From Candidatus Pacebacteria bacterium CG2_30_36_39 (GTDB taxonomy: Bacteria; Patescibacteriota; Microgenomatia; UBA1400; PJMF01): DNA of 64,000 nt. Under the pieces are notes generated by a model, which was not told the origin of the DNA, ran no database searches, and was given only the letters and a program-made list of their open reading frames with translations. This document shows positions 5,103 through 60,319 of the stretch, piece after piece (position 1 is the stretch's first letter; the number at the start of each line of letters is the position of its first letter). Both the position numbers and the translations under genes were made by a program. The stretch is from positions 14,030-78,029 of the forward strand of contig MNZB01000004.1 in assembly GCA_001873435.1 (NCBI GenBank), in the 5' to 3' direction.

Positions 5103-6467
5103 TTACTCATCAATAACTGAAGTACTTATCTCTGGAAGTTGTAAAATATCAGCAAACATCTCATCCAAATACTCTCCTGTATGAGGATTTATTGCATTAT
5201 GCAATTCATTTTTAACTGTTTGCAACATTTCATTTGCCTCCACTGTTAAACCAGCATCTCGCAAATGCTCTAAAGCCTGCCTAACAAATAACATATTTAT
5301 TCTCCCAGAAGTACCTGGACTATCAAAAAAGGTGCCACAGCTAATCATTGCTGCCATAGCTGATGCCTTGGCAGCCAATAAAGAAGTTTCTGGATCACTA
5401 CTACCACCTTGATACATAAAAATATGTTCAAAATCATCAATTAACTTACTATTATAGTCATCTACTTCCATACTTATTATTCTCGTCATAACCTCATTTA
5501 ACTGACTTACTGCACTAGAAAAATTTGCTTTCCAACTACCATTGAAACCAGCATCACAAGGACAAGCACCATGCCACCTTATCAAATCTCCATGAGGACA
5601 ACTCCAAGCTGTTCTTTCCCGTAAATTACCTTCCAAAAAATCTCCTTCACCCCAGACACTCATTGCCTCATTAATACCCAACATTGCTACTCCAGCTTCT
5701 GGCAAAGCAGTCTCCATTAAATATCTCAAAAACATATCACCAAATTTAAAATGATGACCAAAAGTTTCTCCGTCCGTAAAAGCTATCATTGGCAAAGTGG
5801 CTGGTAAATTATCTAGTCTAGGAAATATCACTTCATCTGCAAACTGATTTGCATTTTCTTTTTTATGGTGAGCTAAAGCAGAAGAAACTGGTCGATCAAA
5901 AGCTAATAATAAAAACTGCTTACCATTGGGAAGAGGAATTTTCACTGGCCGATCATCAATCTCTTTATTGGGAACATCGATTTGTTCAGGAGCACATATT
6001 ACTCCGATATAACCAAATTCAGAAAGAACTTCTAATGTTTCCATATCCAAAGCCGTCTCTGGTGCCCAAAACCATTGTGGCAATTGCCCTGCTTGTTCAG
6101 CAAATAATTTTGCTCCAGCACCAATTAAAATCTGTTTGTCTCCATAAGAAAGATCTGGCAACAATACATGAAGATAGGGATCTCCAACTCCTCTTTCTTT
6201 CAAAGCTGATTCTAAATCAGGCAAAGATTCTGGAGATATATTTTCCATTTCTTTACGCATAGTCGCAAAGAAATCAAATGAAGAAAGCTCTAATAAGCCA
6301 GCTTGAATCTGTGGAACATAGCTTTCTCCAGCAATTACTCTATTCCAATCAACACCATATGGATCTGTCTGAATAGATTTAACCCGTTCGTGAGCTCCTT
6401 TTCTAGGAGGTTGATAAAAGTGCTCACCGAGAATCATGAAACGTTCTTGATTGTATCGAGCCATCAA
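5103..6467 (-). CDS. glycoside hydrolase family 57-like protein
   Basis: GEHFYQPPR (GH57 region I HQP-type), WAPETAL (WxPE nucleophile region) and TDGETFGHH (DGE acid/base region). Also a Cys cluster CPHGDLIRWHGACPC. Confidence 0.65.
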   Translation of the reverse strand: MMARYNQERFMILGEHFYQPPRKGAHERVKSIQTDPYGVDWNRVIAGESYVPQIQAGLLELSSFDFFATMRKEMENISPESLPDLESALKERGVGDPYLHVLLPDLSYGDKQILIGAGAKLFAEQAGQLPQWFWAPETALDMETLEVLSEFGYIGVICAPEQIDVPNKEIDDRPVKIPLPNGKQFLLLAFDRPVSSALAHHKKENANQFADEVIFPRLDNLPATLPMIAFTDGETFGHHFKFGDMFLRYLMETALPEAGVAMLGINEAMSVWGEGDFLEGNLRERTAWSCPHGDLIRWHGACPCDAGFNGSWKANFSSAVSQLNEVMTRIISMEVDDYNSKLIDDFEHIFMYQGGSSDPETSLLAAKASAMAAMISCGTFFDSPGTSGRINMLFVRQALEHLRDAGLTVEANEMLQTVKNELHNAINPHTGEYLDEMFADILQLPEISTSVIDE

Positions 6468-6506: not shown

Positions 6507-7778
6507 TTAATGCTTTAAAGCTTCTCTTTGTTCAATGCTGTGAAAAATTAAGATCACCAAAATCAAAGGAAAAAATGCCATTAAAGCAGTTTTATGTGAA
6601 CCAAAATTATCCAAAGCAAAACCAATAGCTGGAAACAATACAATAGAAATAATATTGCGCACAAGACTCTCCAAAGAACCAAGAGTAGCACGCATATTCT
6701 TTTGATAAAAATATTGTTTGAATGGACTCATGATTGGAGAAATTAATGAACTAAATGAGAAATAAACTACAAAAAATATTAAACCAGCAATAGGACCAGA
6801 AACAACAAATAAAGATGTTAAAACTAATAATCTAGCAACCATCATGATTTCCAAATATTTTTTTTCTGAAGAAAATTTCTTACTAAAATATTTAGGTACC
6901 AAACTAAAAACTGCCCCCATCAAAGAACCCAAGGCAACCATAATAGGTAAATTTCTTACATCCAATTTAAGATCCAATAAAAATGATTGATAAACTACAT
7001 CTGAAAAAAATAGGTTTACCACTTCACTAAAAATACCAACAAATAATAATTTTTTAACAACTGGATGAGAACTTGTATATTTAATTGCTTGTTTAGAAAT
7101 TTTAACTGTATCAGCAAAATTCTTTTTTAAAGAAAAAGTAACTTTTCTGGTTTTTTCTTTCAAACCAGAAAGAATCATGGCACCAACAAAATAACCCACA
7201 CAACCAGTTAACCACAAAAAATCTAAACCCTGGTGACTCTGACCAAAAACAAAATATTGAGTAGTAGCACCAACTAAGTACAAAAAGATAATTGCATTTA
7301 AATTTGAAAAAGCAGTAGCAAATTGATAAACAAACTCAAAGGTTGAATAAAACTTATTAATCAAATCTTCTCTTTTAGCTTTTTTGGCAATGTCGTAAGG
7401 TAAAGACTCAAAAGCTCCAGAACTAAATGTATAAGCAATTCCCTTTAAACTAAAAAGAAACCACATCATCCAAGGCTCAGTAATAAAGAAAAATAAGCCA
7501 AAAATTAAAGACTGCATCAACCAACTAACTTGAACAGATTTTCTTTTGCCATATAAATCTGCAAAAACTCCAGTTGGAATTTCTGCGATTAATAAAAATA
7601 ATGATTGCAAAGACAAACCAATACCAACCTGAGTTGCTGAAAAACCTTTGGCAAAAAAGAAGGCCATAATAACCATATCAATATCTGGAATAGAAACACC
7701 TGTTCCTAAACCTAAATAAATAGGGTTAAAAAGCTGCCATTCTTTTTGCTTAAAATAATTTTTTAGCTTCTTAAACAT
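6507..7778 (-). CDS. MFS-type transporter (host-like composition), last gene of the atypical operon
   Basis: About 12 hydrophobic segments. MFS loop motif GVFADLYGKRKS (GxxxDrxGrR-like). Only a 7-nt gap to the upstream gene. Confidence 0.65.
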   Translation of the reverse strand: MFKKLKNYFKQKEWQLFNPIYLGLGTGVSIPDIDMVIMAFFFAKGFSATQVGIGLSLQSLFLLIAEIPTGVFADLYGKRKSVQVSWLMQSLIFGLFFFITEPWMMWFLFSLKGIAYTFSSGAFESLPYDIAKKAKREDLINKFYSTFEFVYQFATAFSNLNAIIFLYLVGATTQYFVFGQSHQGLDFLWLTGCVGYFVGAMILSGLKEKTRKVTFSLKKNFADTVKISKQAIKYTSSHPVVKKLLFVGIFSEVVNLFFSDVVYQSFLLDLKLDVRNLPIMVALGSLMGAVFSLVPKYFSKKFSSEKKYLEIMMVARLLVLTSLFVVSGPIAGLIFFVVYFSFSSLISPIMSPFKQYFYQKNMRATLGSLESLVRNIISIVLFPAIGFALDNFGSHKTALMAFFPLILVILIFHSIEQREALKH

Positions 7779-7785
7779 AAGATTC

Positions 7786-8226
7786 TTATCTTACACAAAT
7801 TCGAGCAAAATGAATAATCATTTCCATTTCTTCAGTAAGCTCTAAGCCTTCTCTAGTTTTAACAGCAAATCTATCATCTTCGGCAACAATTGAAATAATT
7901 TCTAAAGTAGCAGTAGTGAAAAACTCACAACCAACTCCATTTACTAAGTATTCCAAAATATCCCAAAGTCTAATATTTCTCTTATCCCATTCCAAATCTT
8001 GGCCAGCCAAAAAATCTTCCTCTGCTAAAGCTAAAACATCTCTAGCTCCTTCACTTAATTGACCTGATTTGTTTTTTAACTGATAAATAATCAGCATGGC
8101 TGCAGCGCAACTAGCGGTATCAGTTGTGAGCATATGACCACATACATGATAAAGCAAATCGCAGTTACATTCCTCTGCTTGTTCTTCTGTTTCTAGAAGA
8201 TGTTTTGGTTTTTTTTCGTCAGACAT
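7786..8226 (-). CDS. hypothetical acidic Cys/His-containing protein
   Basis: 146 aa, acidic. EECNCDLLYHVCGHM could be a metal-binding cluster. Same strand and tight spacing with the operon genes. Confidence 0.4.
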   Translation of the reverse strand: MSDEKKPKHLLETEEQAEECNCDLLYHVCGHMLTTDTASCAAAMLIIYQLKNKSGQLSEGARDVLALAEEDFLAGQDLEWDKRNIRLWDILEYLVNGVGCEFFTTATLEIISIVAEDDRFAVKTREGLELTEEMEMIIHFARICVR

Positions 8227-8237
8227 AATATCCTTTA

Positions 8238-10151
8238 TTATTCTTTTTCTTGCTCATTAATAAAAAGTGCTACAGCACAGCTATCAGAATCAGCCGCTAA
8301 AGCCTGGGCACATAATTTTTCTAGTTCATTTAATTGAGAAGTTTGAATTCCTTCGTTTAATTCTTCGTCAGTAACATAAGTTGGAAAACTCATTGGTTCA
8401 GTTAGCATGAATCTTTCAGTATGAGTACTTTCGATTGGTTGAAAAATTTCTTCTGGACTTTGCAAATCTTTAAGCATTGCCTGCAAAATCTGCATCGGAC
8501 CTTCATGAGTAGAAACAACAACCTTCATTGATCTACCAGTCTCCTGATAAAACTGATTAACTGTTTCTAGTAAATCAATCATAAAAGACAAAGCTTTGAG
8601 ATGTACAAATGAGAAATTTTCACCACCAGCTATGGCATTAGAAAATGAATGCAAAACTTCTTCACCATATTCACTAGCTTTGTGTCCAACTCCAACTCCG
8701 AATGAACGCTCATTTAAACGCCAATCTCTAACAATAGCTGAAACTGGGAACGGCTCACCAATTGACCATAAAGCAACATCAATAGTTGCTAACGAAGAAG
8801 TTCTACCTGATGAAATTACTAAATCTGGAGCAGTAGTATCCCAAAGCTGAGTAGCAATATCATATGAACGTTGAGCACTTCTCTTGGCAATAGTGTCGTC
8901 AAGAATTCCATCGTTGGTATTAATTACACCAGGAAGTTTGCCAGCTCTTTGAGGAGTACTGTCGCCATTGCGAACTAAAAGCAAGTCCAAACCTGCTCCA
9001 TAATTCCAATTAGCTAATAATTCTTGATAACGAGTTCTAAGTTCATCAATACTTGGAATTAGTTCAAGAATTTCTGCTTTTTCTGGATTACTAGCAGTAA
9101 CAAAACTTGGTTCAGAAACTAATCTACCCAACTTACTAGGATCTCTTTGATTAACCCTATCTTTAACATATCCAGCTTGAGTTTCTTCATCCGCATTTTG
9201 AGCAGAAACAGAAACATCCTGAGTTAAACGATTGGTTTCCCAAAGTTTGAGAGCTCTTTTTTGATCTTCAGTTGGTTGATAATCTGGTTTTTCAACTGTA
9301 TGAGCACTCATAATACTTTCTACTTCGATACCATTTGGAAAAGAAAGTACACCAGTAGCATTAATAATAGGAGTAACCTCAGTTTGAAAATATCTAGTAC
9401 CATATTCTTGTGCCCAATAAAGCAAACCTGAAGTAAAAATTAAACGAGTGCCTGGTTTTAATTTGGCATCTTTATAAACTTCATGTTCAAGTAAAACTTT
9501 CTCTAGATCTTCACGCCAATTACGAGCTAATTTTTCGATTTCAGCTGGAAATGATTCCACACGACGAGCATCACCTGCTACATCATCAGCTTTAATACCT
9601 TCTATTTGAGCATTGAGTTGAGCACCATTAAAATCATCCCAGCCATCTATTTCAACCCACATGGGACTCATACCAGCAACTGGACCACTACCCCATACTT
9701 TGCCAGCTGGAGAAACATCTCTATTAGAAATGTCTTGATAAACTCCGGCGTGAGTGATTTTTATTCCACCATCTTCGGTAACTACAGCCATAATAGCTGT
9801 TTCACCTTCAATAGCGTATTTAACACCATGCAAAAGCTCTAAGTCGTTAAGATCTAGTCTTCCTTTTGAATTTGGTACTAATGACCAATCTGGAGGAAGT
9901 GGATCTTCATAATAGGTACCATCTGGAAGAGTTGTAGGAGCTGAATTCCATTTCAAAGTAAAAACATGATCTGGAGTCCATTCACTAAGAGGCATGACTT
10001 CTTTGATCTCGCCATCTTTTGCCACTGCAGCTACTAAGCCTTTTTGTCGCAACTCTGCTTCAAAAGCTCTTTTTTCTTCTTTGTTTGTCCAATCTACTCT
10101 TTCGAGAGAAAGATCAAATTCTTGACGTAATCTACTTATTTTTTCTGCCAT
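8238..10151 (-). CDS. hypothetical two-domain protein; C-terminal phosphoglycerate-mutase-like (histidine phosphatase superfamily) domain with RHG to RNG substitution
   Basis: C-terminal region aligns block by block with dPGM: LLLVRNGDSTPQ vs LVLVRHGESQWN, SSGRTSSLAT vs TSVLKRAIHT, PVSAIVRDWRLNERSFGVGVGHKASEYGEEV vs [33 protein letters not shown], and VVVSTHEG vs IIAAHGNS. The N-terminal 380 aa are unassigned. Confidence 0.55.
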   Translation of the reverse strand: MAEKISRLRQEFDLSLERVDWTNKEEKRAFEAELRQKGLVAAVAKDGEIKEVMPLSEWTPDHVFTLKWNSAPTTLPDGTYYEDPLPPDWSLVPNSKGRLDLNDLELLHGVKYAIEGETAIMAVVTEDGGIKITHAGVYQDISNRDVSPAGKVWGSGPVAGMSPMWVEIDGWDDFNGAQLNAQIEGIKADDVAGDARRVESFPAEIEKLARNWREDLEKVLLEHEVYKDAKLKPGTRLIFTSGLLYWAQEYGTRYFQTEVTPIINATGVLSFPNGIEVESIMSAHTVEKPDYQPTEDQKRALKLWETNRLTQDVSVSAQNADEETQAGYVKDRVNQRDPSKLGRLVSEPSFVTASNPEKAEILELIPSIDELRTRYQELLANWNYGAGLDLLLVRNGDSTPQRAGKLPGVINTNDGILDDTIAKRSAQRSYDIATQLWDTTAPDLVISSGRTSSLATIDVALWSIGEPFPVSAIVRDWRLNERSFGVGVGHKASEYGEEVLHSFSNAIAGGENFSFVHLKALSFMIDLLETVNQFYQETGRSMKVVVSTHEGPMQILQAMLKDLQSPEEIFQPIESTHTERFMLTEPMSFPTYVTDEELNEGIQTSQLNELEKLCAQALAADSDSCAVALFINEQEKE

Positions 10152-10152
10152 A

Positions 10153-11139
10153 TTATTTGCCCAATTTTTCAGCGTTTAAATTTGTAAAGTAGGTAAAATA
10201 ATCACCATCCAAAGGAGCATTGGTAGGAACAAAAGTTTCCTCAGTTCTAGCCACAGTCTTTCCAGGAATAACTGTCTCAACAACTTTATTTTCAGCTAAC
10301 TTCATTACACTTCTGGCAGTGAAACTTGGCATAATAGCTGGATCGATTGATCTAGCACCATCATCTTCAAGTAAAATTTGACCTGTTGATAATAAAAATG
10401 GCTTGCCTTCAACAATTCCTAGTTTGGCTAATTTTTCTGGAGAATAATTACCAACCCATTTGCCTAAGCGTTCACCCCAAAGCTTTAAAGAATTAACTTG
10501 AGCATTTGGAGTATGTAAAGCAACTTCACCTGTTTGGTCATAAACCCAATATTCCATTTCGATTTCGGCAATTTCTGACCAATCATTTACTTGAACCCAA
10601 GTAGTAGATAAACCAGAAGATCCTCCATTTTCAATACCACTAGTCCATGTTTTATATGTTCTGCCGGTATCATCTAAACGAGGAGTTCTATCACCAAAAT
10701 CAACCAAGGTACCAATATATAAAGGCTTCATTACTCCATTTTCTAGAACACCAACCACAGCTGCCTCAGCCTCTAAAACGTATTGTTTTTGACCCTCAAT
10801 CATACAAAGAGCTTCTGTTGAAGCAGTATCGTGAGCTTTTGGCAAAGGCTCGATATGAGGATTTGGTTTTGAAGTAGCAATATTAAAATGCATTAAATAT
10901 CCATGCTCTGGCAAAAATTCACCTCGAGTTTGATATTGCAAAGAATCATCACTACCTACCACCAAAACTATATCTAATGGCTTAAGCAACTCTTCTAATC
11001 TGCGATGTAAATCTGGTCTAGAAAATAGTTGAGTAGCTTTTAAATGAGATAAATCAATTTCTTTGGAAATTAAATCTATTCCAGATAATTTTTCATCTTT
11101 TTCTAGAAATTCTAAATCGATAATGATTGTTTCTTTCAT
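10153..11139 (-). CDS. hypothetical protein (acidic, Trp-rich)
   Basis: 328-aa ORF with a 1-nt gap to the downstream gene, in the operon. No recognisable motif. Confidence 0.45.
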   Translation of the reverse strand: MKETIIIDLEFLEKDEKLSGIDLISKEIDLSHLKATQLFSRPDLHRRLEELLKPLDIVLVVGSDDSLQYQTRGEFLPEHGYLMHFNIATSKPNPHIEPLPKAHDTASTEALCMIEGQKQYVLEAEAAVVGVLENGVMKPLYIGTLVDFGDRTPRLDDTGRTYKTWTSGIENGGSSGLSTTWVQVNDWSEIAEIEMEYWVYDQTGEVALHTPNAQVNSLKLWGERLGKWVGNYSPEKLAKLGIVEGKPFLLSTGQILLEDDGARSIDPAIMPSFTARSVMKLAENKVVETVIPGKTVARTEETFVPTNAPLDGDYFTYFTNLNAEKLGK

Positions 11140-11163: not shown

Positions 11164-12795
11164 TTAATGAGTTCCTGAGGCGACTCTTTGAGCGTGAACA
11201 GCCATTGTGTCGCTAGAATTTTGTAATGAACCAACTACGTTTACGTACTCTGGCAATCTCATTCCATCTCTGTGTCTATCAACATCGTGGAGAGTACCAA
11301 TAATACGACCACCTGGTTTAACTAACCTACTGGCTTCCTCAAAAATCTTACAAACTTGATGTCCACCTTCACAACAATCAGCAGCTGATGTTTGAACAAC
11401 TACCATGTCATAAAGTGGTTCTTCATAAAATTCACCAATTGGAATATTACCCAAGTCTTCAACGTTGCGGAAACGAACGTTCATAGCACGCATACCATTT
11501 AGAGCCTGCATGATGAAAGCTTGCTTACCTCTACCATGACTCATGATGTCAATACGACGAAGTGGATTTTTACCATCCTTGGCATTAGCAGCAGATAAAA
11601 TATTTGCTTCTTTATGACAACCAATGAATAAAACTCTTTGACGAGGATTTTCTCTTAGTTCGGCTAGAGCTTCAGCAATATTAGAGTCAGGAGTATGATC
11701 TTGTTTTCTCCATTCCTCATACTTTTCTTGGAAGAGAGATTCTACTTTATTCCAATCTAAAGATAGAACTTCAGCAGTATCTCTAATTCCTAAGGCACCT
11801 AAAACAAAAGCTTTTAATGGATAAAAGGTATTGTGACCAGCATCAGTCACTAAACTATAATCTCCAACCCAACTATTTACTTTAGCTTGAGCTGCAATTA
11901 CTGATCCCTCTCCAACATACATAGTTCTATAAAGAACTTTGGCTTCTTTAGCTACCCAAGCCCAATCACCAATAGTGACACCTGGGAAACTAGTATATTG
12001 ACGGACACGAGCAAGTTGAGAAGGTAGATCGGCTGGATGTTCTTGAGTAATAAAGTAGGCTTTTTGACCAACCCAAGCATTATCACCAATTTTTAAAGTT
12101 TCACCACCTTGTACGTTAAAGGCACCGCCAATACGAGCATAGCGACCAATAGAAACTCTAGGAATAGCACTCATTGGACCCATTGAAGAATCCATTTCTG
12201 GATGAGCAGAAGTGTTGTAACCAGAACTCTGAAAATGAGTAGGAAGAATAGCTTCAAAACCACGGCCAACATCAGTTGGAAGCATTTGTGAGCCACCTCT
12301 TAGCATATCAAAACTTAATGGATTGCCACTTGGACTAATTGTTTTTCCAGATTCTTCCAAAGGATGGACATGTAAAATAGGACCAGTAGTATCAATATAA
12401 AAATGTTCTTCTGGTAAGTTAAAAGCTGCTCTGAGTTCTCCGAGTTTTTCTTTCCAAAGAGCTGCCATGGCAATTTCATCGGTAAAGGTTTTAGCTTTGC
12501 TACCAATTTTCTTTAAATCAGCACAGATCATGGCCCAAGCATAGGCTGGGGTCATGTCACCCAAATGCAAAGCACCTTGAACAAACATTGCTACTTCAGC
12601 ATCAAATGGACGAGTGTATTCTGCCGGTTGATGCTCTTCAAAAACTACTGGTCTAGTAAGACCAAGTTCTTGAGCTAATTTCATTTGGTTGGAGGGATCA
12701 CGGTCGATAATTTGACCCGCAGGATTAATAGCCAGGACTTCACCTTGGCCTAATCGTCTATGAACTTCTTCTGTGTGTTCTGCCTTTTTTGCCAT
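11164..12795 (-). CDS. hypothetical multi-domain protein: N-terminal unknown domain, central left-handed beta-helix (hexapeptide-repeat) region, C-terminal class-I methyltransferase-like fold
   Basis: Hexapeptide-like periodicity in SIGRYARIGGAFNVQGGETLKIGDNAWVG...VTIGDWAWVAKEAKV...VGEGSVIAAQAKVN. The C-terminus has VLFIGCHKEA (degenerate motif I), YDMVVVQTSAAD (motif II-like) and LVKPGGRIIG (motif III). Start taken at ATG 12795 (MAKKAEH); the track starts at an upstream TTG. Confidence 0.5.
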   Translation of the reverse strand: MAKKAEHTEEVHRRLGQGEVLAINPAGQIIDRDPSNQMKLAQELGLTRPVVFEEHQPAEYTRPFDAEVAMFVQGALHLGDMTPAYAWAMICADLKKIGSKAKTFTDEIAMAALWKEKLGELRAAFNLPEEHFYIDTTGPILHVHPLEESGKTISPSGNPLSFDMLRGGSQMLPTDVGRGFEAILPTHFQSSGYNTSAHPEMDSSMGPMSAIPRVSIGRYARIGGAFNVQGGETLKIGDNAWVGQKAYFITQEHPADLPSQLARVRQYTSFPGVTIGDWAWVAKEAKVLYRTMYVGEGSVIAAQAKVNSWVGDYSLVTDAGHNTFYPLKAFVLGALGIRDTAEVLSLDWNKVESLFQEKYEEWRKQDHTPDSNIAEALAELRENPRQRVLFIGCHKEANILSAANAKDGKNPLRRIDIMSHGRGKQAFIMQALNGMRAMNVRFRNVEDLGNIPIGEFYEEPLYDMVVVQTSAADCCEGGHQVCKIFEEASRLVKPGGRIIGTLHDVDRHRDGMRLPEYVNVVGSLQNSSDTMAVHAQRVASGTH

Positions 12796-12853: not shown

Positions 12854-12898
12854 ATTATAGTCCTTTCATAATGAATTGTCAATACTTTATATAGGATA
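12854..12898 (-). promoter_or_regulatory. near-consensus sigma70 promoter (TTGACA-17-TATAAT) with upstream TATCCTATA element; drives the 11164..6507 operon
   Basis: Minus strand reads TATCCTATATAAAGTATTGACAattcattatgaaaggacTATAATcc. The -35 is at 12877..12882, the -10 at 12854..12859 and TATCCTATA at 12890..12898. Confidence 0.55.
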
Positions 12899-13233
12899 TA
12901 TATATTATCAATACCAGATCTGAAAAAAACATAAAAATAAATTATTACAAGATCTTTGAAAGACTAATAGTAATGTTTTTATTAAAATATAAGTCTATCA
13001 ATTATTTGTAAATAACAAAATAAAGGCCCATAATGAGAGTGTTAAATGTTTTCTACAGTAGCGTTCGCACTCGCTTATGGAATCATCTAACAAAATCCCT
13101 GCCTCATGGCAAGAAAGGAGACCATCATTGGAAAACTTCATTTGTCACCAATCTTTGCTTCTTGGTAATCCAAAACAAATCAATTCAGCATGCATGGGAG
13201 AGAACACAACGCCTCCCCCTATTTTCATATAAC

Positions 13234-14349
13234 TCAACTATTTATTATTTTTTCCCAACTATATTTTTCATTACCAAAATGCCCATAAACAGCAGTCTGC
13301 TTATAAATTGGTTGTTTTAAATTTAAATAATTAATTGTTCCAGCCACAGACAAATCAATTAGTTCTTTGGCAAATTTTTCTATTTTTTTATCACTAACTT
13401 TGGCTGTGCCAAAAGTCTCTATCTCCAACATAACTGGTTTTTGTGCTCCAATAAAATATGCCAAACGTACTTCAGCTTTTTTAGCTAAATTATTTCCAAC
13501 AATATTTTTAGCAATAAACCTAGCTGCATAAGCACCAGATCTATCAACTTTACTAGGATCTTTACCAGAAAATGCTCCCCCACCTACCCTGGCAAAACCA
13601 CCATATGTATCTACCACTATTTTTCTTCCAGTTACTCCAGTATCTGAGGCTGGACCACCTATATACCAAGCCCCAGTACCATTAACTACTAATTGATTTT
13701 TATTAATTGAAAAACCATAAAATTCTAATACTGGCAAAACTACTTGTTGATATAAATCATTTTTTACATCTACAAGTTTCATACTCTTTTGGTGCGGTAC
13801 AGCCAAAACTACTTGGACAATACCAACTGGTTTATCATTTTCATATTGAACACTAACTTGAGTTTTTCCATCTGGCCTAAGATATGAAAGTTGCTTACTT
13901 TCTCTAACACAATCTATTTTTTCAGCCAATTTATGTGCTAACTCTATTGGAAGTGGCATAAGATTTTTTGTGTCCTGACAAGCATAGCCAAACATCATTC
14001 CCTGATCTCCAGCTCCAGCACTATCAACTCCTATGGCAATTTCTGGAGACTGATTGTGAATATAGACATTTATTGGAGATAAATTAGTAAAACCAAGGAA
14101 CCACTTAGTAAATCCAAGTCTCTTGATTTCTTCTCTGGCAATTAATTCATAATTTGGTTTTTCACCAAGACAAGTAACTTCTCCAGCCATCACCACTTGA
14201 TTTGCTGTTACTAGGGTTTCTACAGCAACCCTTCCATTAGGATCCTGCTTAAGAACAGCATCAACTACTGCATCAGATATTTGATCACAGATCTTATCAG
14301 GGTGACCAGCACAGACTGATTCTGAAGTAAAAATATATGATTGTGGCAT
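13234..14349 (-). CDS. metK: S-adenosylmethionine synthetase
   Basis: GHPDKICDQISDAVVDA and other MetK blocks. Start taken at MPQSY (14349) because GAGGAG lies 9 nt upstream; the upstream in-frame Met at 14367 lies inside the RBS. Confidence 0.95.
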   Translation of the reverse strand: MPQSYIFTSESVCAGHPDKICDQISDAVVDAVLKQDPNGRVAVETLVTANQVVMAGEVTCLGEKPNYELIAREEIKRLGFTKWFLGFTNLSPINVYIHNQSPEIAIGVDSAGAGDQGMMFGYACQDTKNLMPLPIELAHKLAEKIDCVRESKQLSYLRPDGKTQVSVQYENDKPVGIVQVVLAVPHQKSMKLVDVKNDLYQQVVLPVLEFYGFSINKNQLVVNGTGAWYIGGPASDTGVTGRKIVVDTYGGFARVGGGAFSGKDPSKVDRSGAYAARFIAKNIVGNNLAKKAEVRLAYFIGAQKPVMLEIETFGTAKVSDKKIEKFAKELIDLSVAGTINYLNLKQPIYKQTAVYGHFGNEKYSWEKIINS

Positions 14350-14351
14350 AA

Positions 14352-14503
14352 AAAAAACTCCTCTCAATAATTAAGGAGGAGTTACTTATTTTTTTTGCCT
14401 ATTTCGGCCACATCATTCCCCCTTAAGCGAACTAGCACCGTATCCTTTGCCAAAAGGCTCGGTTGCTGGACAATGTATAAACATTGCCACTCTTGATGTT
14501 GAG
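14352..14503 (-). promoter_or_regulatory. SAM-I-clan (S-box-like, possibly SAM-I/IV variant) riboswitch leader with terminator hairpin overlapping the metK RBS and start codon
   Basis: Minus-strand RNA CUCAACAUCAAGAGUGGCAAUGUUUAUACAUUGUCCAGCAACCGAGCCUUUUGGCAAAGGAUACGGUGCUAGUUCGCUUAAGGGGGAAUGAUGUGG contains the S-box signatures AUCAAGAG, GCAACC and GGUGCUA plus a closing P1 (CAACAUC/GAUGUGG). It is followed by AACUCCUCC-uuaauuauuga-GAGGAGUU-UUUUUUUU(AUG). P2 is a simple hairpin without the classic GGAGGGA/GGCCC kink-turn, so the subtype is uncertain. Confidence 0.55.
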
Positions 14504-14538
14504 AAAAATTATATCAGACTAATATTTATTTGCACAGC

Positions 14539-39707: not shown

Positions 39708-40322
39708 ATGACCTCTGTCAAAAATATTTTTCAACCAACAACAGAAAATGAAATAGCTCCAGGCATTCATCGCACTAGCATTGATGGCCTCTTATATATT
39801 CAAAACAAACAATTCATTGACGATCGTGGCTTCTTTGCTGATATCACCGGATTAAAAAATCTAGAAAAAATTATTGGCAAACGCATGGAAATTAAACAGC
39901 TAAACCTAGCCTATTCACATACCAATGTCATTCGTGGCCTACATGCAGAGGGCTGGAACAAACTAGTAACCACATTTACTGGTAAAGCCTTTTCTGCTCT
40001 CGCAGATATACGTCAAACCTCACCAACTTTTGGCAAAGTAGAATACTTTATGTTTGAACCAGAACCAAATAAAGACCTCAGAACTAGTCTCTATGTACCA
40101 ATGGGTGTTGCTAATTCTGTTTGTGTCATTGAAGGCCCAGTATTTTACCATTACGCAGTCGATGCTTTTTATGATGAGCGAGACGTTTCTGGAGACAAAG
40201 CTCTTTCTTTATTTGACCCAGATCTTGCTATTGAATGGCCAATTCCTCGTGAACAAATGATTTTATCTCAAAGAGATGTAGATAGTTTGAGCCTCAAGGA
40301 AATGATTGCTCAAAAAAACTAA
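39708..40322 (+). CDS. rfbC: dTDP-4-dehydrorhamnose 3,5-epimerase (RmlC cupin)
   Basis: FIDDRGFF, RGLHAEGW, and the His/Tyr catalytic pair YHYAVDAFYD. Confidence 0.8.
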   Translation: MTSVKNIFQPTTENEIAPGIHRTSIDGLLYIQNKQFIDDRGFFADITGLKNLEKIIGKRMEIKQLNLAYSHTNVIRGLHAEGWNKLVTTFTGKAFSALADIRQTSPTFGKVEYFMFEPEPNKDLRTSLYVPMGVANSVCVIEGPVFYHYAVDAFYDERDVSGDKALSLFDPDLAIEWPIPREQMILSQRDVDSLSLKEMIAQKN

Positions 40323-42064
40323 TTAATTATTGGTTTCAAAATAGCTAATTCCTGAAATATTTCTGAAAAATTAAATTGTTGATAAAACTTTAAAAGCAAA
40401 TCCAAGTGATTGTCGTAACGAGAATATTTCTCTTGAATTTCAGTGGTTTTTAAAACATCAACATCTTTCGTAATTCTATCTTTTGCCAATGGAGTAATTT
40501 TCTGTACTAAAAAATATTCATTAAGCTTATTTAAAAAACTTTCCCAAATATTTTTATATTCTATTGAACTAGAATTATTTTTTTCAAAATTAAGCTCAAT
40601 TATTTGTGAACCAAAATTATTTTCTATTTGATGATCAATTAAATGAATGGTTGGCTCAGCATCTTGGGTATAAGTATAAAGACTGGATTCTAATAATTCT
40701 CCATCAAAATCACTAGTAATAAACTCAATTGAATATTTTCCTACTTCTGGTTTTTCAATAACCGTAAAAGCCATTGATTTGGCAGTAGAAATATTTTCTT
40801 CCCATTCTTTAGTCTCAATGAGTGTTTGTTCCTCATTATAAAATTTAACCAATACACTTGGATCATGAACAACAACAATGGCACTCAAATCAGTAAAACT
40901 TGGCTGAAAAACTCTTATTGATTGGATCGGTTCATGCTCATGTTCATATTTTTTTTCGAATAAGGGATCTAACAATTTGAACTCATTCAAAACCTGATCA
41001 AAACCATTTAGTACAAAAAAGTGACCAGGTATTTGTGCAATCACTGGCTGCTTAGCTGCTAAAAAAACCTGAGCAGCTTCCCGCCATCCCTGCTTAAGAA
41101 AAGAAAATTCCAGTTTTGGTAGAAGCACTGACTGAGCTTGATCACTTAATATTCTAGTTAGACGTGTGATCGCCCACCAATTAACCAAACCTTCTCCTAA
41201 ATATCCATCTTGCTGATCTATTAACCATTTATTTAAACTAGCTGGATTTAATTCTTCTCCAGAAAGAAATTCTGAAAATCCATGAAAACGCAAAACCATA
41301 GCAGCAGAAGTTAAAGCACATCCCCAACGACTAATTGTTGGCCTATCATTACCAACCCAAAGAGAGGCGCTATCATAAATATCATCACTCCAAAAAGGGT
41401 CATTTTGCCAAAAGTGAATGAGTGAAATTGACTCATCAGCTTCTTTATTTATTTGATTATTTTTTAAAATTGTCTTAACAGGAAAAACACTGCCAGGAGA
41501 CATTTTTATTCCCCAACTACCCACGCTAGCAATTTCATCATAGGTCCAGTCATAAAAATGAAACACTTCAACATTATCAACTAAGATACTCAACAGCCCA
41601 TTCTTTCTAGAAATACTTATCAAATAACTTTGCCCAATATTCCAATTAAAATTAATACCTCTTGCCAACATTTCTTGACCACCAATAAAATGATTTACCC
41701 ACAAAGCTCCAGCCGAGAAATGTAATTGATAATAGTTTTTGTTATCCACAAACCCCCAGACCAAATTATGATCAACACCAAACTGAGGAATTAAATCAAA
41801 CTGCCAAATAAAATCTTTAGTTGGTAAAAAATATTCTGCCTTTGTAATTAAAAAAGTTGGAGGAGTTACCTGGTCAGCTCTACCAGAAACAACTTCATTC
41901 TCGCTTCCTTCATTGCTCAACTCCCAAAACACACTAGGACTTAAATTAAATTCAGACCATTGAGTAAAAGCAAATATTCTTTCCGTAGAAAAAATAAATA
42001 TTAATAAATAAAAAATAAATACTTTAATAAAAAAATAAAATCTTTGCACCAAACAATTAAACAA
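40319..42064 (-). CDS. secreted C39-like peptidase domain protein (581 aa)
   Basis: N-terminal signal/TM. Cys block RWGCALTSAAMVLRFHG and His block IPGHFFVLNGFD...DP. Confidence 0.55.
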   Translation of the reverse strand: MFNCLVQRFYFFIKVFIFYLLIFIFSTERIFAFTQWSEFNLSPSVFWELSNEGSENEVVSGRADQVTPPTFLITKAEYFLPTKDFIWQFDLIPQFGVDHNLVWGFVDNKNYYQLHFSAGALWVNHFIGGQEMLARGINFNWNIGQSYLISISRKNGLLSILVDNVEVFHFYDWTYDEIASVGSWGIKMSPGSVFPVKTILKNNQINKEADESISLIHFWQNDPFWSDDIYDSASLWVGNDRPTISRWGCALTSAAMVLRFHGFSEFLSGEELNPASLNKWLIDQQDGYLGEGLVNWWAITRLTRILSDQAQSVLLPKLEFSFLKQGWREAAQVFLAAKQPVIAQIPGHFFVLNGFDQVLNEFKLLDPLFEKKYEHEHEPIQSIRVFQPSFTDLSAIVVVHDPSVLVKFYNEEQTLIETKEWEENISTAKSMAFTVIEKPEVGKYSIEFITSDFDGELLESSLYTYTQDAEPTIHLIDHQIENNFGSQIIELNFEKNNSSSIEYKNIWESFLNKLNEYFLVQKITPLAKDRITKDVDVLKTTEIQEKYSRYDNHLDLLLKFYQQFNFSEIFQELAILKPIIN

Positions 42065-42088
42065 TAAAAAACTGACTTTAATTAGAAA

Positions 42089-45000
42089 TTATTCAGCAGC
42101 CTCTTCATCAATAAAATCACCTGACTCAACCTTGATCTTTTTATCTTTTCTCTTCAAAACAGACACCAACAAAAACAACGTCGTTATTAACACAACAACA
42201 AAAGCTACCAAAGTAATCAACTCAGGCAAATAGAAAACAACCAATGTCCCCTTACCACTAACTTGCCACAGATTAGCCCAATTATTTAAACGATAGTGAG
42301 GTAAAAATTCATTACCACCCTTTACAAAACCCAACCATAAATCATCATAAGTCTGATCTAATCCCAAGTAACATTTTTCTCCCAAACATTGAAATGACAC
42401 TTCATGAATAGCATCGAAAGAAAGCTTATCTTCACCAACCTTAATCCTATTTAAAACAGCTTCTTGACCAATCAAACTAAGCTTTAATTGAGCCAACTGA
42501 TTGAGAGCTAATGGTTGTAAATAAATACCATCTATTTCATTCACACTCTCTTTGCCAAAAGACCTTGTTTCCCAATTTAAATAAAAGGAAGAAAAAGAAT
42601 CTTTACTAACCTGATTTAAAGTAATATACGAATCAAATACTTCATCCTGCTCCAAATAATCCTCGGCTAAAACATTAGAATCTCCATAATTAATAAAAAA
42701 CTTAGTTCCCCGACCACGATAGTTTTTCCCCATCAACCTCATCACATAAGAGTAGGAAGATGAAATATCCTTAAAACTATAACCATTGCAATTTACGGCT
42801 CTTGAATCAGCCTCATAAATTGCTCGACCATTTTCAAATTTAGTTTTTATCTCTCCTACTTGGTGATTAACACAATTAACTGAAGGATTTTGAGCCAAAT
42901 CCAACTTAATCACAGGGAAATATGAAATCAAACCAAGCTGCTCAATTTCAGGGGTTCGCAACACCAAATCTCTTTGAATAATCGCCCAATCTGGATCTAA
43001 TTCAGCAACTTCTATTGAATCGAATGAAGAACCTTTTGCCATTCCATTTTCATAAGAAATTTCGGTGGGCTTAGCAGCATATTCAATTTTAATTTTTTCT
43101 CCAACAACCAAATCCAAAACTGGATAAATAGGTTGGTTTTTATCAACAATAACCCCAAAGTTATTAAAGAAAATTACTATGCTATCAGCAACAAAGTTAT
43201 CTTCTAATTTAAACTCAAAATTCTCTAACTGAGGCAACTTAAGACTTTGCTCTCCCAAGACCAAAGTTGATTGAGGAAAATCCACAGACACCTTACCATC
43301 AGTATATTTTATGGCAGCTGGCACAAGATAAGAACTATCCTTATATCCTGGCATTAACAGCTCATACACAGCCCTAGGAACTTTGTTTACAACCTTAACC
43401 CCCAAATCATCAAATTGAAGATTTTTGGGATAGTGAGTCATTAATTCAGAAAAAGGAAACACAACATTTGGTGATTCACTGGTTAAAACATAATCACCCT
43501 CTTGTTGATATAAATAGTCTGTTCTAGTTCTATTATTATTAGCTTCAGCAAATTGAACCTTATTCGGCACCAAAATCTCTGTTTCTTTGTCAATAGCATT
43601 ACGCTCATAAATACTTAGAAAGTCCTTAGACCAAAGCTCTGAAAAGCCAGCTGCATGCAACAAAGCATGGTCAACAGCAAAGTCATGTTGGCGACTAGGA
43701 TCCATCCTAGTTTCATCTACAATCACCAAATCCACATTATATTTTTTAGCAATTTGAGCAAAATGATTGGCATTATAAGTATCAAGAGAAGTTTTTAATT
43801 CATAATAGAAAAAATCATTAGTTTCTATCCAACGATCAAAATCTCTCATTAGCAATGGTTGAGGGAAACCAAAAAAATTAAAACCCATACCTTGATAGCC
43901 ATTACCCTCACGTAAAAACTGCCAATCATAATATTCCCAACCAGCATGAGTAAATTGTGGTAACTGTAAAACTCTCAAGTCTTTGTCTAGAGTATTCATG
44001 TAATCAAACATTTCCTGATACTGAGATGGATATTTAATTTGTAGTTTTTCACTTAAAAAATGACCTTGGAATGAAGGCAATGAAATATAGATTATGATCA
44101 AAAATAAGCCGCCAATTATTGTGTTGGCAGCAAACAACCAAAGCTTTACTATTTTTTTACGAGAACACAAAAATATAGTAATTTTTTCAATTATTCCAAT
44201 AAATAATAAAATCGAAACAAAAGAATAAAGAATTGATAGCTTAGTAAATGGATTGCGAAAAGCCTCACGAAATGTAGCTGATTTATACAGCTTGTCGAGA
44301 ATTACGCTGGTAGGCAATAAATCTACCCAAATAAAAATTAGACAAAAAATATACATCAATAAAACAGCCCAGCGTTTCCAGTTTTTTTCTCGATCAAAAA
44401 TAATAGATAAACTACCTAGAATTGTTAAAATTCCCAAACCCTGCATTAAATATCTGACTAAAGATTTGTTTAAATGACTATCCCATTCATTAAAAATAAG
44501 ATCAAAGTTCTTGTTTTTAAAAGAATAATCCATCCAATTAAATAAATATTGAGTACCAGCAGTTAGGTTCTCAATAGTTCCAGATTCGCGAACACTCCAA
44601 ACAGACTCTGGTGCAAACAACTGATTATCACGGCTTTCTTGAACGTAGCGAGCGTTGTGAGAAACATAATATAAATTAGGTAAAATCCAGTAAGCATTAG
44701 CAAAAAAAGTTAGTAAGCCAACAAAAAAACTCATTTGAATCGCTGACCAAAAAGACCTTTTTTGCAGAGAAACAAAAAAGACATAAAGTAAAGAAAAAAC
44801 TACAGCCAAATAAAAAACGGTTTGCGTATGAGCGCTAGGAGCCATTAAAAACTGTAATAAAATAAAAGAAAAAACCGTTTTAATACTTACTTTATTAATT
44901 AAACTATGGAGATTGAGCAATAGAAATGGCAAGAAAGCAAATTGAATCGTAAACATCTCAAAGCTGATATAAAACTGTTGTAAAGTTAAAATATGTAAAA

Positions 45001-52435: not shown

Positions 52436-52509
52436 CGGAGAGTGGCGCAGATGGCTAGCGCGCGCGCATGGGGTGCGCGAGGTCGCAGGTTCGAGTCCTG
52501 TCTCTCCGA
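52436..52509 (+). tRNA. tRNA-Pro (anticodon GGG), C1:G72 acceptor, no encoded CCA
   Basis: CGGAGAG-TG-GCGC-AGATGGCTA-GCGC-G-CGCGC-ATGGGGT-GCGCG-AGGTC-GCAGG-TTCGAGT-CCTGT-CTCTCCG-A. Cloverleaf is consistent. Anticodon loop AUGGGGU. Confidence 0.85.
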
Positions 52510-60233: not shown

Positions 60234-60319
60234 GGAAGGGTCGCATAGTGGTTCATTGCACAGGTCTTGAAAACCTGCGGCTCACGCCATCGCGGGTTCG
60301 AATCCCGCCCCTTCCGCCA
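60234..60319 (+). tRNA. tRNA-Ser (anticodon TGA), long variable arm, CCA encoded
   Basis: GGAAGGG-TC-GCA-TAGTGGTTCAT-TGC-A-CAGGT-CTTGAAA-ACCTG-CGGCTCACGCCATC-GCGGG-TTCGAAT-CCCGC-CCCTTCC-G-CCA. Confidence 0.85.

What the first reader, a model, noticed from the sequence alone, without database searches (positions are those of the whole stretch)
11164..12795. Unusual fusion: unknown N-terminal domain plus left-handed beta-helix plus degenerate Rossmann methyltransferase fold
Hexapeptide periodicity (acyl/nucleotidyl-transferase-like LbH) is followed by motifs resembling MTase motifs II/III (YDMVVVQTSAAD, LVKPGGRIIG). The glycine-rich motif I is absent (VLFIGCHKEA), which suggests an altered or lost SAM site. 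Taken as a single polypeptide, this order of domains is not a standard architecture I recognise.
Basis: partly seen in the sequence, partly recalled or inferred. Interest (0 to 1): 0.55.

Follow-up and report, generated by a model that had tools for sequence, protein, structure and literature searches.

The report
Acyltransferase fused to methyltransferase-like domain
This is one intact gene of an uncultured groundwater bacterium (Candidatus Pacebacteria) that joins a sugar/xenobiotic-type acetyltransferase domain to a methyltransferase-shaped domain lacking the usual cofactor loop; it leads a conserved five-gene operon of unnamed proteins ending in an efflux-type transporter, so it is a rare uncharacterised enzyme system, not an artefact.

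Summary
Window 11164..12795 (minus strand) is one uninterrupted 543-aa ORF, and every quoted motif is at the stated place. It has four parts:
- An N-terminal region with no detectable relatives.
- A conserved His/Tyr-rich segment.
- A left-handed beta-helix of the Maa/LacA/WcaF acetyltransferase type, with the catalytic His (H253) invariant.
- A C-terminal class I methyltransferase fold (Foldseek E 5e-7) with no GxGxG loop in any of 47 family members.

Pfam thresholds are not met. The domain calls rest on NCBIfam, PDB profile searches and AlphaFold2/Foldseek.

Only 10 close homologues exist among 5.8 billion proteins. A sister family of about 40 clusters (Agrobacterium vitis, Citrobacter, Streptomyces and others) shares the helix-plus-methyltransferase-like core.

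The gene has its own consensus sigma-70 promoter. It leads a conserved operon: two paralogous proteins that are probably FAH-fold, one fused to a phosphoglycerate-mutase-like domain lacking the nucleophilic His; a small helical protein; and an MFS transporter. The sister family keeps the same logic: fusion, FAH-fold protein and, in most loci, an EamA or MFS transporter.

Best reading: an acyl-CoA-dependent tailoring enzyme in a pathway that modifies and exports a small carboxylated metabolite. The substrate is unknown. It is a new variant of known kinds, of moderate interest.

The parts
12854..12882 (-). Sigma-70 consensus promoter (TTGACA-17 nt-TATAAT, 12 of 12 matches), about 60 nt upstream of the ATG at 12795
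   Evidence: only 12/12 match in 9.6 kb scanned; sequence read. A terminator-like hairpin at 13115..13096 separates it from metK. Function not tested.
11164..12795 (-). Gene A: 543-aa fusion protein (NCBI OIP73586.1, 'hypothetical protein AUK08_03370', Candidatus Pacebacteria bacterium CG2_30_36_39)
12406..12795 (-). N-terminal region, residues 1-130. Residues 1-60 form a small alpha/beta unit specific to this subfamily. Residues 83-125 form two long helices shared with the sister family. No known relatives.
   Evidence: AF2 secondary structure, block pLDDT about 51-94, mostly above 70; no hits; conservation
12160..12267 (-). Conserved pre-helix segment GRGFEAILPTHFQSSGYNTSAHPEMD...IP (residues 177-212). 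T186, Y193, H198 and P212 are invariant in 47 sequences. It is the most conserved block of the protein.
   Evidence: mean identity 0.75 within the subfamily
11821..12159 (-). Left-handed beta-helix acyltransferase domain (residues 213-325), Maa/LacA/WcaF/XAT type. The catalytic-His candidate H253 (codon 12037..12039) lies in an 'EHP' motif that aligns with 'THP' of 3ftt.
   Evidence: alignments; H253 invariant; block pLDDT 47-92; residues 301-307 below 50
11641..11820 (-). Helical linker (residues 326-385) with invariant P326, K328 and W348
11164..11640 (-). Class I methyltransferase-fold domain (residues 386-543, plus stop). Features: degenerate motif I RVLFIGCHKEAN (11602..11637); invariant beta2 Asp D416 (11548..11550); beta4 YDMVVV (11377..11412); beta5 LVKPGGRIIG.
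   Evidence: Foldseek; PDB profile, YcgJ E 0.006; motif I across 47 sequences; coordinates
10153..11139 (-). Gene B: 328-aa protein, a paralogue of the N-half of gene C. It carries invariant E123-x-E125 ... D147 ... R151 ... K163. Probably FAH fold.
   Evidence: BLASTP E 1e-10 to gene C; invariants; hhalign score 28 vs shuffles 14.3 +/- 2.6; rank enrichment
8238..10151 (-). Gene C: 637-aa protein. The N-half (9252..10151) is FAH-like, with EGE ... QDISNRD. The C-half (about 8442..8999) is a cofactor-dependent phosphoglycerate-mutase-like histidine-phosphatase fold in which the RHG nucleophile is Asn (VRNGDS, 8958..8975).
   Evidence: (PDB 1qhf E 7.4e-5)
7786..8226 (-). Gene D: 146-aa protein. 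It appears equivalent, by position and a short visible motif, to the C-terminal extension of the 730-740-aa gene C homologues in L003/L005.
   Evidence: read by eye; not tested statistically
6507..7778 (-). Gene E: 423-aa MFS transporter whose closest families are efflux types
   Evidence: MFS_1 E 9e-15; HP1165, Tet(40), MdtH efflux families, all weak

Best explanation
Gene A encodes a multidomain acyl-CoA-dependent acyltransferase.

Domains:
- The catalytic module is a left-handed beta-helix of the maltose/galactoside/WcaF/xenobiotic O-acetyltransferase type. It uses the invariant His253 as general base.
- An invariant Thr/Tyr/His-rich segment precedes the helix and probably forms part of the acceptor site.
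- A domain descended from a UbiE/YcgJ-type class I methyltransferase follows. It has lost the glycine-rich SAM loop in the whole superfamily but keeps the fold, the beta2 Asp and the beta4/beta5 motifs. I infer that it no longer methylates and instead serves as a ligand-holding or assembly module.

Operon:
- The gene is transcribed from its own strong promoter as the first gene of a five-gene operon.
- The partners are two paralogous, probably FAH-fold (Glu-x-Glu/Asp metal site) proteins. One carries a phosphoglycerate-mutase-like domain without the phospho-accepting His, so it is probably a binding module rather than a phosphatase.
- A small helical subunit and an MFS efflux-type transporter complete the operon.

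Together these most likely convert a small carboxylated (2-oxo-acid or sugar-acid-like) metabolite, acylate it, and export it.

Shown: domain identities, conservation, operon conservation, gene fusions. Inferred: acyl transfer, loss of methylation, substrate class, export.
For: Beta-helix domain and catalytic His:
- NCBIfam WcaF-family E 3.6e-7.
- PDB hits to SACOL2570/LacA/Maa/CatB/Vat, with the window's 'QEHPAD' aligned on 'TATHPL'.
- H253 is invariant in 47 sequences.

Methyltransferase fold:
- Foldseek E 5e-7, probability 1.0, top 50 hits all of that fold.
- The profile search hits 38 PDB chains, nearly all methyltransferases.
- No GxGxG in 47 of 47 sequences.
- The domain is less conserved than the beta-helix: mean identity 0.55 vs 0.68 within the subfamily, 0.21 vs 0.33 between subfamilies.
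- Two members (P0028, P0033) end right after beta4.

Operon:
- The same gene order occurs in all 5 independent related loci with enough flank.
- B+C are fused in L002, and C+D appear fused in L003/L005.

Sister family:
- It keeps fusion + FAH-fold partner in all 7 independent loci examined. The partner was scanned directly in C. koseri and Streptomyces (NCBIfam GguC/AraD1, E 7e-23 and 3.7e-23).
- A six-locus profile matches PDB KdaD 2q18 at E 1.9e-9. The L014 partner matches that profile at E 1.2e-57.
- An EamA transporter lies inside the cassette in 4 of the 7 loci, and an MFS gene lies nearby in a fifth.

Promoter.
Against: - No curated Pfam threshold is met.
- No member of either subfamily has been characterised; no relevant paper was found.
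- The FAH assignment for the window's own proteins B and C rests on a motif, one weak hhalign match (E 0.005) and a rank statistic. HMM searches against PDB and Pfam found nothing.
- SAM binding cannot be excluded, because D416 is invariant and some methyltransferases tolerate unusual motif I sequences.
- The direction of transport and the substrate are unknown.
- A detoxification role fits the same parts equally well.
Confidence: 0.55

Rival explanations
1. Truly bifunctional enzyme: the beta-helix acylates and the C-terminal domain is still an active SAM-dependent methyltransferase with an atypical SAM loop. The product would be both acylated and methylated.
For: - Complete seven-strand methyltransferase fold.
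- Invariant beta2 Asp D416, plus the beta4 and beta5 motifs.
- A few sister members have a partial loop, LDxNPGxGN.
- In this genome, metK with its SAM riboswitch lies immediately upstream.
Against: - No GxGxG in 47 of 47 sequences, and the loop sequence is not conserved between subfamilies.
- The domain is the fastest-evolving folded part, and it is truncated in P0028/P0033.
- metK adjacency is absent from all other loci, and gene A has its own promoter after a terminator-like hairpin.
Confidence: 0.2
2. Detoxification or resistance cassette rather than biosynthesis. The enzyme would inactivate an incoming toxin or antibiotic by O-acetylation, as Vat, CatB or Maa do. The FAH-like proteins would degrade it and the transporter would pump it or its product out.
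For: - The closest solved relatives include xenobiotic, chloramphenicol and streptogramin acetyltransferases.
- The MFS protein's best families are drug-efflux types.
- Sister cassettes carry a divergent LysR regulator in four of seven loci (a LysR gene lies nearby in a fifth). Two sit among integrases or transposases, in C. koseri and A. vitis.
Against: - All similarities to resistance enzymes are far below their curated cut-offs.
- No copy was found on 72,556 plasmids or 50,697 phage records.
- The five-gene operon with fused partner proteins looks more like a pathway than a single-step resistance gene.
- In L011 the cassette follows luxI.
Confidence: 0.2
3. Not a real fusion: either two adjacent genes read through by error, or a chance ORF.
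For: One homologue (P0009) is split into 488 + 52 aa.
Against: - The ORF is uninterrupted, and nine homologues of 47-77% identity are collinear over the full length.
- The same protein sequence was recovered on 21 contigs from several sources.
- The split in P0009 is near the C-terminus, not at a domain boundary.
Confidence: 0.01

Closest known systems
Maltose/galactoside O-acetyltransferases (E. coli Maa 1ocx, LacA 1kqa; S. aureus SACOL2570 3ftt) and WcaF/xenobiotic acetyltransferases
   Same: Left-handed beta-helix of about 100 residues. An extended loop carries a His-Pro motif, and the window's H253 aligns with that His. The best NCBIfam match is the WcaF family.
   Different: - Those enzymes are about 180-210 aa and stand alone.
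- Here the helix is embedded in a 543-aa protein, with a 212-aa unrelated N-terminal part in place of the short Mac-type N-terminus and a 220-aa methyltransferase-like C-terminus.
- Scores are an order of magnitude below the family cut-offs (30 vs 192 bits).
Class I SAM-dependent methyltransferases of the UbiE/YcgJ/TehB type (1xxl, 2xva, DhpI 3ou6)
   Same: Same fold by Foldseek (E 5e-7; TM-score on the target 0.5-0.6). The pattern '...LP...YD.VV....E..R.LKPGG.I' is the same.
   Different: The GxGxG SAM loop is missing throughout the superfamily. No Pfam methyltransferase model reaches threshold.
Methyltransferase-fold domains that do not bind SAM, such as the anamorsin N-terminal domain (the SAM-free property is recalled from memory)
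   Same: A retained Rossmann methyltransferase fold with a degenerate cofactor loop. Anamorsin chains appear among the weak profile hits (E about 0.09).
   Different: No specific relationship is shown. The resemblance is one of evolutionary fate, not ancestry.
Uncharacterised sister family annotated 'acyltransferase' or 'hypothetical protein' (e.g. WP_186648430.1 Fluviispira vulneris, ACM35396.1 Agrobacterium vitis, Citrobacter koseri, Streptomyces, Nocardia, Gluconobacter)
   Same: - Shared helices, the PTHF...Y...H segment, the beta-helix with the same invariant His, the linker and the methyltransferase-like domain: 29 invariant positions.
- Always followed by an FAH-fold gene, and usually accompanied by an exporter.
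   Different: - Only 23-28% identical to the window protein.
- Lacks the first ~60 residues and the 35-residue insert (residues ~142-176).
- Its partner is a single KdaD/GguC-like protein and the exporter is EamA. The window has two divergent paralogues, a mutase-like domain, a small subunit and an MFS transporter.

Membership tests
Hexapeptide-repeat (left-handed beta-helix) acyltransferases, Maa/LacA/WcaF/XAT clade | Tandem hexapeptide repeats detectable by family profiles | tested here: met
   NCBIfam WcaF-family E 3.6e-7; PDB phmmer 3ftt E 1.7e-4 and LacA 1kqa E 0.004. However, Pfam Hexapep scores 19.6 bits against a gathering cut-off of 27.
Hexapeptide-repeat (left-handed beta-helix) acyltransferases, Maa/LacA/WcaF/XAT clade | Catalytic His in the loop that interrupts the helix (the 'HP' motif; LacA His115 recalled from memory) | tested here: met
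   H253 in 'QEHPAD' aligns with 'TATHPL' of 3ftt and 'TASHSL' of 3ect. It is invariant in 47 sequences.
Hexapeptide-repeat (left-handed beta-helix) acyltransferases, Maa/LacA/WcaF/XAT clade | Trimer with the acyl-CoA site between subunits; measurable acyl transfer | not testable with these tools
Class I SAM-dependent methyltransferases | Seven-stranded Rossmann-like methyltransferase fold | tested here: met
   Foldseek against PDB: top 50 hits all of this fold, E 5e-7, probability 1.00. AF2 strand order beta1-beta7 at residues 387-535.
Class I SAM-dependent methyltransferases | Glycine-rich motif I (E/DxGxGxG) that wraps SAM | tested here: not met
   VLFIGCHKE aligns to VLDIGAGAG. None of 47 superfamily members has GxGxG.
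Class I SAM-dependent methyltransferases | Acidic residue at the end of beta2 that binds the ribose hydroxyls | tested here: inconclusive
   D416 is invariant in 47 sequences. In the HMM alignment to YcgJ it lies 3 columns before the canonical Asp, and the geometry could not be inspected.
Class I SAM-dependent methyltransferases | Curated family-model score and actual SAM binding or methyl transfer | tested here: not met
   The best Pfam methyltransferase hit for the window domain is E 0.07, 13.3 bits against a cut-off of 27. Binding itself is not testable here.
Fumarylacetoacetate hydrolase (FAH) superfamily (for operon genes B and C, N-half) | Significant profile match to FAH-family models or structures | tested here: inconclusive
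   - The window proteins have no hit in Pfam or PDB.
- hhalign to the sister-family partner scores 28, E 0.005, against column shuffles of 14.3 +/- 2.6 with 0 of 60 reaching 28.
- 2 of the top 3 non-family hits among 657 ORFs are those partners.
- The partners themselves are FAH-fold (GguC/AraD1 E 7e-23; KdaD 2q18 E 1.9e-9).
Fumarylacetoacetate hydrolase (FAH) superfamily (for operon genes B and C, N-half) | Glu-x-Glu ... Asp metal triad, with Arg and Lys downstream | tested here: met
   E-x-E, D, R and K are invariant in all 10 sequences of both paralogue groups. Gene C reads EGE...QDISNRD, like KdaD EPE...DDVSARD. This is a pattern match only.
Histidine phosphatase superfamily, cofactor-dependent phosphoglycerate mutase branch (for gene C, C-half) | Sequence similarity to dPGM | tested here: met
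   PDB 1qhf/1bq3 E 7e-5 over profile positions 390-504, including RDWRLNERSFG vs RSWRLNERHYG. NCBIfam PRK14120 E 6e-4.
Histidine phosphatase superfamily, cofactor-dependent phosphoglycerate mutase branch (for gene C, C-half) | Arg-His-Gly motif with the phospho-accepting His | tested here: not met
   The position is Asn in four sequences and Ser in one (VRNGDS/VRSGTG/VRNTDT). The second His is Gln in L001.

The most novel reading that the evidence does not exclude
The beta-helix/methyltransferase-fold fusion may be a new kind of two-site enzyme. The former SAM pocket (invariant Asp, no glycine loop) would hold an adenosyl- or amino-acid-type acceptor, and the beta-helix would acylate it from acyl-CoA or acyl-ACP. 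Together with FAH-fold partners and a dedicated exporter, it would make a secreted acylated small molecule.

The cassette is shared by horizontal transfer between an ultra-small CPR bacterium and Proteobacteria or Actinobacteria. In one genome it sits directly behind luxR-rsaM-luxI. The product could therefore be a signal or an interaction factor. For a host-dependent Pacebacterium, it could be a molecule aimed at its partner cell.
Probability: 0.12. Interest if true: 0.75.

Novelty: new variant of a known kind. Interest (0 to 1): 0.45.

Why it matters
All five proteins of this operon are 'hypothetical' or generic in public annotation. Yet the operon is conserved, has a consensus promoter and takes up 6.3 kb of the genome of a CPR bacterium, a group known for very small genomes.

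It pairs a recognisable catalytic core (an acetyltransferase with its catalytic His) with two domains that look like disabled enzymes: a methyltransferase fold without the SAM loop and a mutase fold without the nucleophile. It also has a dedicated transporter.

If the product is a secreted metabolite, this would be one of few candidate small-molecule pathways in Patescibacteria. It would also give a function to about 50 orphan protein clusters, including genes in Agrobacterium vitis, Citrobacter koseri and Streptomyces.

If instead it is a routine detoxification module, it adds only a new domain arrangement to a well-known enzyme class.

Tried and rejected
- **Two genes or a frameshift:** rejected.
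- **Functional link to the upstream metK and SAM riboswitch:** rejected. The adjacency is absent in all related loci, and a terminator-like hairpin plus a dedicated promoter lie between them.
- **Anti-phage defence system:** no PADLOC hit for any of the five proteins.
- **Plasmid or phage cargo:** tblastn of the window protein found nothing in plasmids or phages, and the sister protein P0016 found nothing in plasmids.
- **Identity of the N-terminal 212 residues:** Pfam, NCBIfam and a PDB profile search gave nothing. The best hit is 1g2r at E 0.63.
- **Direct FAH assignment of genes B and C by HMM:** failed against PDB and Pfam. Only profile-profile and rank evidence remain.
- **Second protein search with the mixed alignment:** returned only the same 10 proteins.
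- **Metagenome contig scan:** found no extra loci.
- **Literature searches** on the domain combination and on GguC/AraD1: nothing relevant.
Full report
**The ORF**

Window 11164..12795 (minus strand) is one uninterrupted ORF of 543 codons from an ATG. A TTG seven codons upstream (12816) gives the 550-aa form that some pipelines call. Homologues begin at the ATG-equivalent Met. An AG-rich stretch lies just upstream of the ATG. The 'unnoticed stop or frameshift' refutation therefore fails. Only one homologue (P0009) carries a frameshift, and it is near the C-terminus.

**Host**

RecA, RNase Y, an M29 aminopeptidase and GMP reductase from the window are exact matches to proteins of 'Candidatus Pacebacteria bacterium CG2_30_36_39', a CPR/Patescibacteria genome. 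The target itself is OIP73586.1, 'hypothetical protein AUK08_03370'. The operon's GC content (0.358) equals that of the window (0.349), so nothing in composition marks it as foreign.

**Rarity and relatives**

A word-indexed search of 5.8 billion proteins returned only 10 relatives (47-100% identity). All are about 540-560 aa and collinear, apart from the frameshifted P0009.

An exhaustive HMMER search of 1.84 billion cluster representatives found 17 proteins at E < 1e-30. It revealed a sister family of 410-520-aa proteins matching profile positions ~173-500. That range covers the conserved pre-helix segment, the beta-helix and the C-terminal domain.

Querying with one sister protein gave 41 clusters. 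They come from Agrobacterium vitis, Citrobacter koseri, Pseudomonas, Streptomyces, Nocardia, Gluconobacter, Komagataeibacter, Fluviispira and MAGs. Annotations are 'acyltransferase', 'hypothetical protein' or, at JGI, 'acetyltransferase-like isoleucine patch superfamily enzyme/SAM-dependent methyltransferase'.

A 47-sequence alignment has 29 invariant positions. They include T186, Y193, H198, H253, D312, W348, D416, R441, Y462, E487 and R490.

**Domain by domain**

1. *Residues 1-212.* No hit in Pfam, NCBIfam or a PDB profile search.
   - The AF2 model shows a small alpha/beta unit (residues 1-60, specific to this subfamily) and two long helices (83-125, shared with the sister family).
   - Residues 177-212 (GRGFEAILPTHFQSSGYNTSAHPEMD) form the best conserved block of the protein.
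2. *Residues 213-325.* A left-handed beta-helix of the acetyltransferase kind.
   - Pfam Hexapep is below threshold (19.6 vs 27 bits). NCBIfam WcaF-family gives E 3.6e-7, with CatB, Vat, Maa and LacA models behind it.
   - The window's own sequence finds S. aureus galactoside acetyltransferase 3ftt (E 1.7e-4), LacA 1kqa, CatB8, Vat, Maa and PaXAT in the PDB.
   - In those alignments 'QEHPAD' lies on 'TATHPL'. From memory of the LacA/Maa literature, that His is the general base. It is invariant here.
3. *Residues 386-543.* A class I methyltransferase fold.
   - Two AF2 models (mean pLDDT 59 with 10 sequences, 79 with 47) both give confident C-domains. Their top 50 Foldseek PDB hits are all of this fold: TehB, DhpI, CbiT, NodS, TrmN, cap methyltransferases and relatives, at E about 5e-7 and probability 1.00.
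   - A profile of the domain hits 38 PDB chains, nearly all methyltransferases, best YcgJ at E 0.006. The alignment places VLFIGCHKE on VLDIGAGAG, and 'YDMVVV...EEASRLVKPGGRI' on the canonical beta4/beta5 motifs.
   - None of the 47 relatives has a GxGxG loop. The loop differs between subfamilies. The domain is less conserved than the helix, and two relatives end after beta4.
   - The beta2 Asp (D416) is nevertheless invariant. A residual nucleoside-type pocket therefore cannot be excluded.

**Operon**

A perfect TTGACA-17-TATAAT promoter lies at 12882..12854. A terminator-like hairpin follows metK at 13115..13096.

Four further minus-strand genes follow gene A with gaps of 1-24 bp:

| Gene | Coordinates | Length |
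|---|---|---|
| B | 10153..11139 | 328 aa |
| C | 8238..10151 | 637 aa |
| D | 7786..8226 | 146 aa |
| E (MFS transporter) | 6507..7778 | 423 aa |

The same order recurs in L001, L006, L003/L004, L005 and L002, whereas the flanking genes differ. B and C are fused into one 885-aa protein in L002. C and D appear fused in L003/L005, judged by position and a short visible motif. These fusions argue that B, C and D work as a unit.

B is a paralogue of the N-half of C (BLASTP E 1e-10). Across both groups E-x-E, D, R and K are invariant, and C reads EGE...QDISNRD. That is the pattern of the FAH-superfamily metal site; compare KdaD EPE...DDVSARD.

Direct HMM searches do not confirm the fold. The remaining evidence is indirect:
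- The profile aligns to the sister family's partner protein with hhalign score 28 (E 0.005), against 14.3 +/- 2.6 for 60 column shuffles.
- Two of the top three non-family hits in a 657-ORF decoy set are those partners.

I rate the FAH fold for B and C as probable, not shown.

The C-half of gene C matches cofactor-dependent phosphoglycerate mutase (1qhf E 7e-5; RDWRLNERSFG vs RSWRLNERHYG). However, the RHG nucleophile is Asn or Ser, and the second His is not conserved. It is unlikely to be a phosphatase or mutase.

**Sister-family context**

All seven independent sister loci examined have the fusion gene followed by a ~250-316-aa gene.
- An EamA transporter lies between the two genes in four of the seven loci, and an MFS gene lies nearby in a fifth.
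- A divergent LysR regulator is present in four of the seven loci (A. vitis, Streptomyces, Gluconobacter, C. koseri), and a LysR gene lies nearby in L011.
- The partner is FAH-fold. NCBIfam GguC/AraD1 gives E 7e-23 and 3.7e-23 for the two partners scanned directly. A six-locus profile matches KdaD 2q18 at E 1.9e-9.
- In one MAG the cassette follows luxR, a DUF4902 (RsaM-like) gene and luxI with a 53-bp gap.
- Two loci sit among integrases or transposases, which fits the patchy taxonomic spread.

The conserved logic across both subfamilies is: acyltransferase fusion + FAH-fold protein, usually with an exporter.

**Interpretation**

- *Shown:* the anatomy, the conservation pattern, the operon and the fusions.
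- *Inferred:* the beta-helix transfers an acyl group using H253. The methyltransferase-like domain has lost methylation and acts as a ligand-holding or assembly module. The pathway handles a small carboxylated metabolite, because FAH-fold enzymes act on 2-oxo, diketo and sugar acids (established family knowledge), and the C. koseri EamA best matches 'carboxylate/amino acid/amine transporter'. The MFS protein exports the product.
- *Rivals:* a truly bifunctional acetyl-/methyltransferase, and a detoxification-plus-efflux cassette. The data cannot separate biosynthesis from detoxification.
- *Excluded:* defence-system membership, plasmid or phage carriage, and a functional link to metK.

**Verdict**

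It is made of recognisable parts and belongs to a wider, uncharacterised family already present in cultured bacteria. It is a new variant of known kinds. The conserved CPR operon and the two apparently disabled enzyme folds give it moderate interest.

Noticed in passing
window 14381..14504 (-): SAM-I/IV riboswitch aptamer (RF01725, 54.5 bits against a gathering score of 41.1) directly upstream of metK (13234..14367, minus strand). This is a classical SAM feedback arrangement, here in a CPR genome.
   Followed up: partly
window 52436..54143: A 562-aa large serine recombinase (Resolvase + Recombinase + Zn_ribbon_recom) on the minus strand. Its 3' end overlaps tRNA-Pro(ggg) at 52436..52510 (+). 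With tRNA-Ser at 60234..60319, this may mark an integrated mobile element.
   Followed up: no
window 40319..45433 (-): A 1114-aa ORF with no Pfam hit, immediately upstream of a 581-aa ORF with a weak Peptidase_C39_2-like domain. Both are unexplained.
   Followed up: no
L006 and L001 (homologous operons, 75-77% identity, GC 0.34): The closest homologous operon lies in a MAG titled 'uncultured Pseudomonadales bacterium', and another (L003/L007) in 'uncultured Gammaproteobacteria'. The window itself is Candidatus Pacebacteria. Either the MAG labels are unreliable or the operon moved between phyla.
   Followed up: partly
L011 3979..9507: In a Pseudomonadota MAG, the sister cassette (fusion, EamA, FAH-fold gene) directly follows luxR, a DUF4902/RsaM-like gene and luxI on the same strand. 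This suggests quorum-sensing control there.
   Followed up: no
L002 4942..7599; L003 12703..14895; L005 4645..6867: Gene fusions among the partner proteins. Genes B and C are one 885-aa ORF in L002. Gene C carries what appears to be the gene D sequence as a C-terminal extension in L003 and L005.
   Followed up: yes
window 8958..8975 (-), gene C residues 393-398: A phosphoglycerate-mutase-like domain has VRNGDS in place of the RHG motif, so the phospho-accepting His is replaced by Asn. This looks like a pseudo-enzyme domain.
   Followed up: partly
window 5103..6467 (-): A GH57-family glycoside hydrolase-like gene lies 40 bp downstream of the MFS gene on the same strand. It is not part of the conserved operon in other loci (NUDIX follows in L001).
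   Followed up: partly
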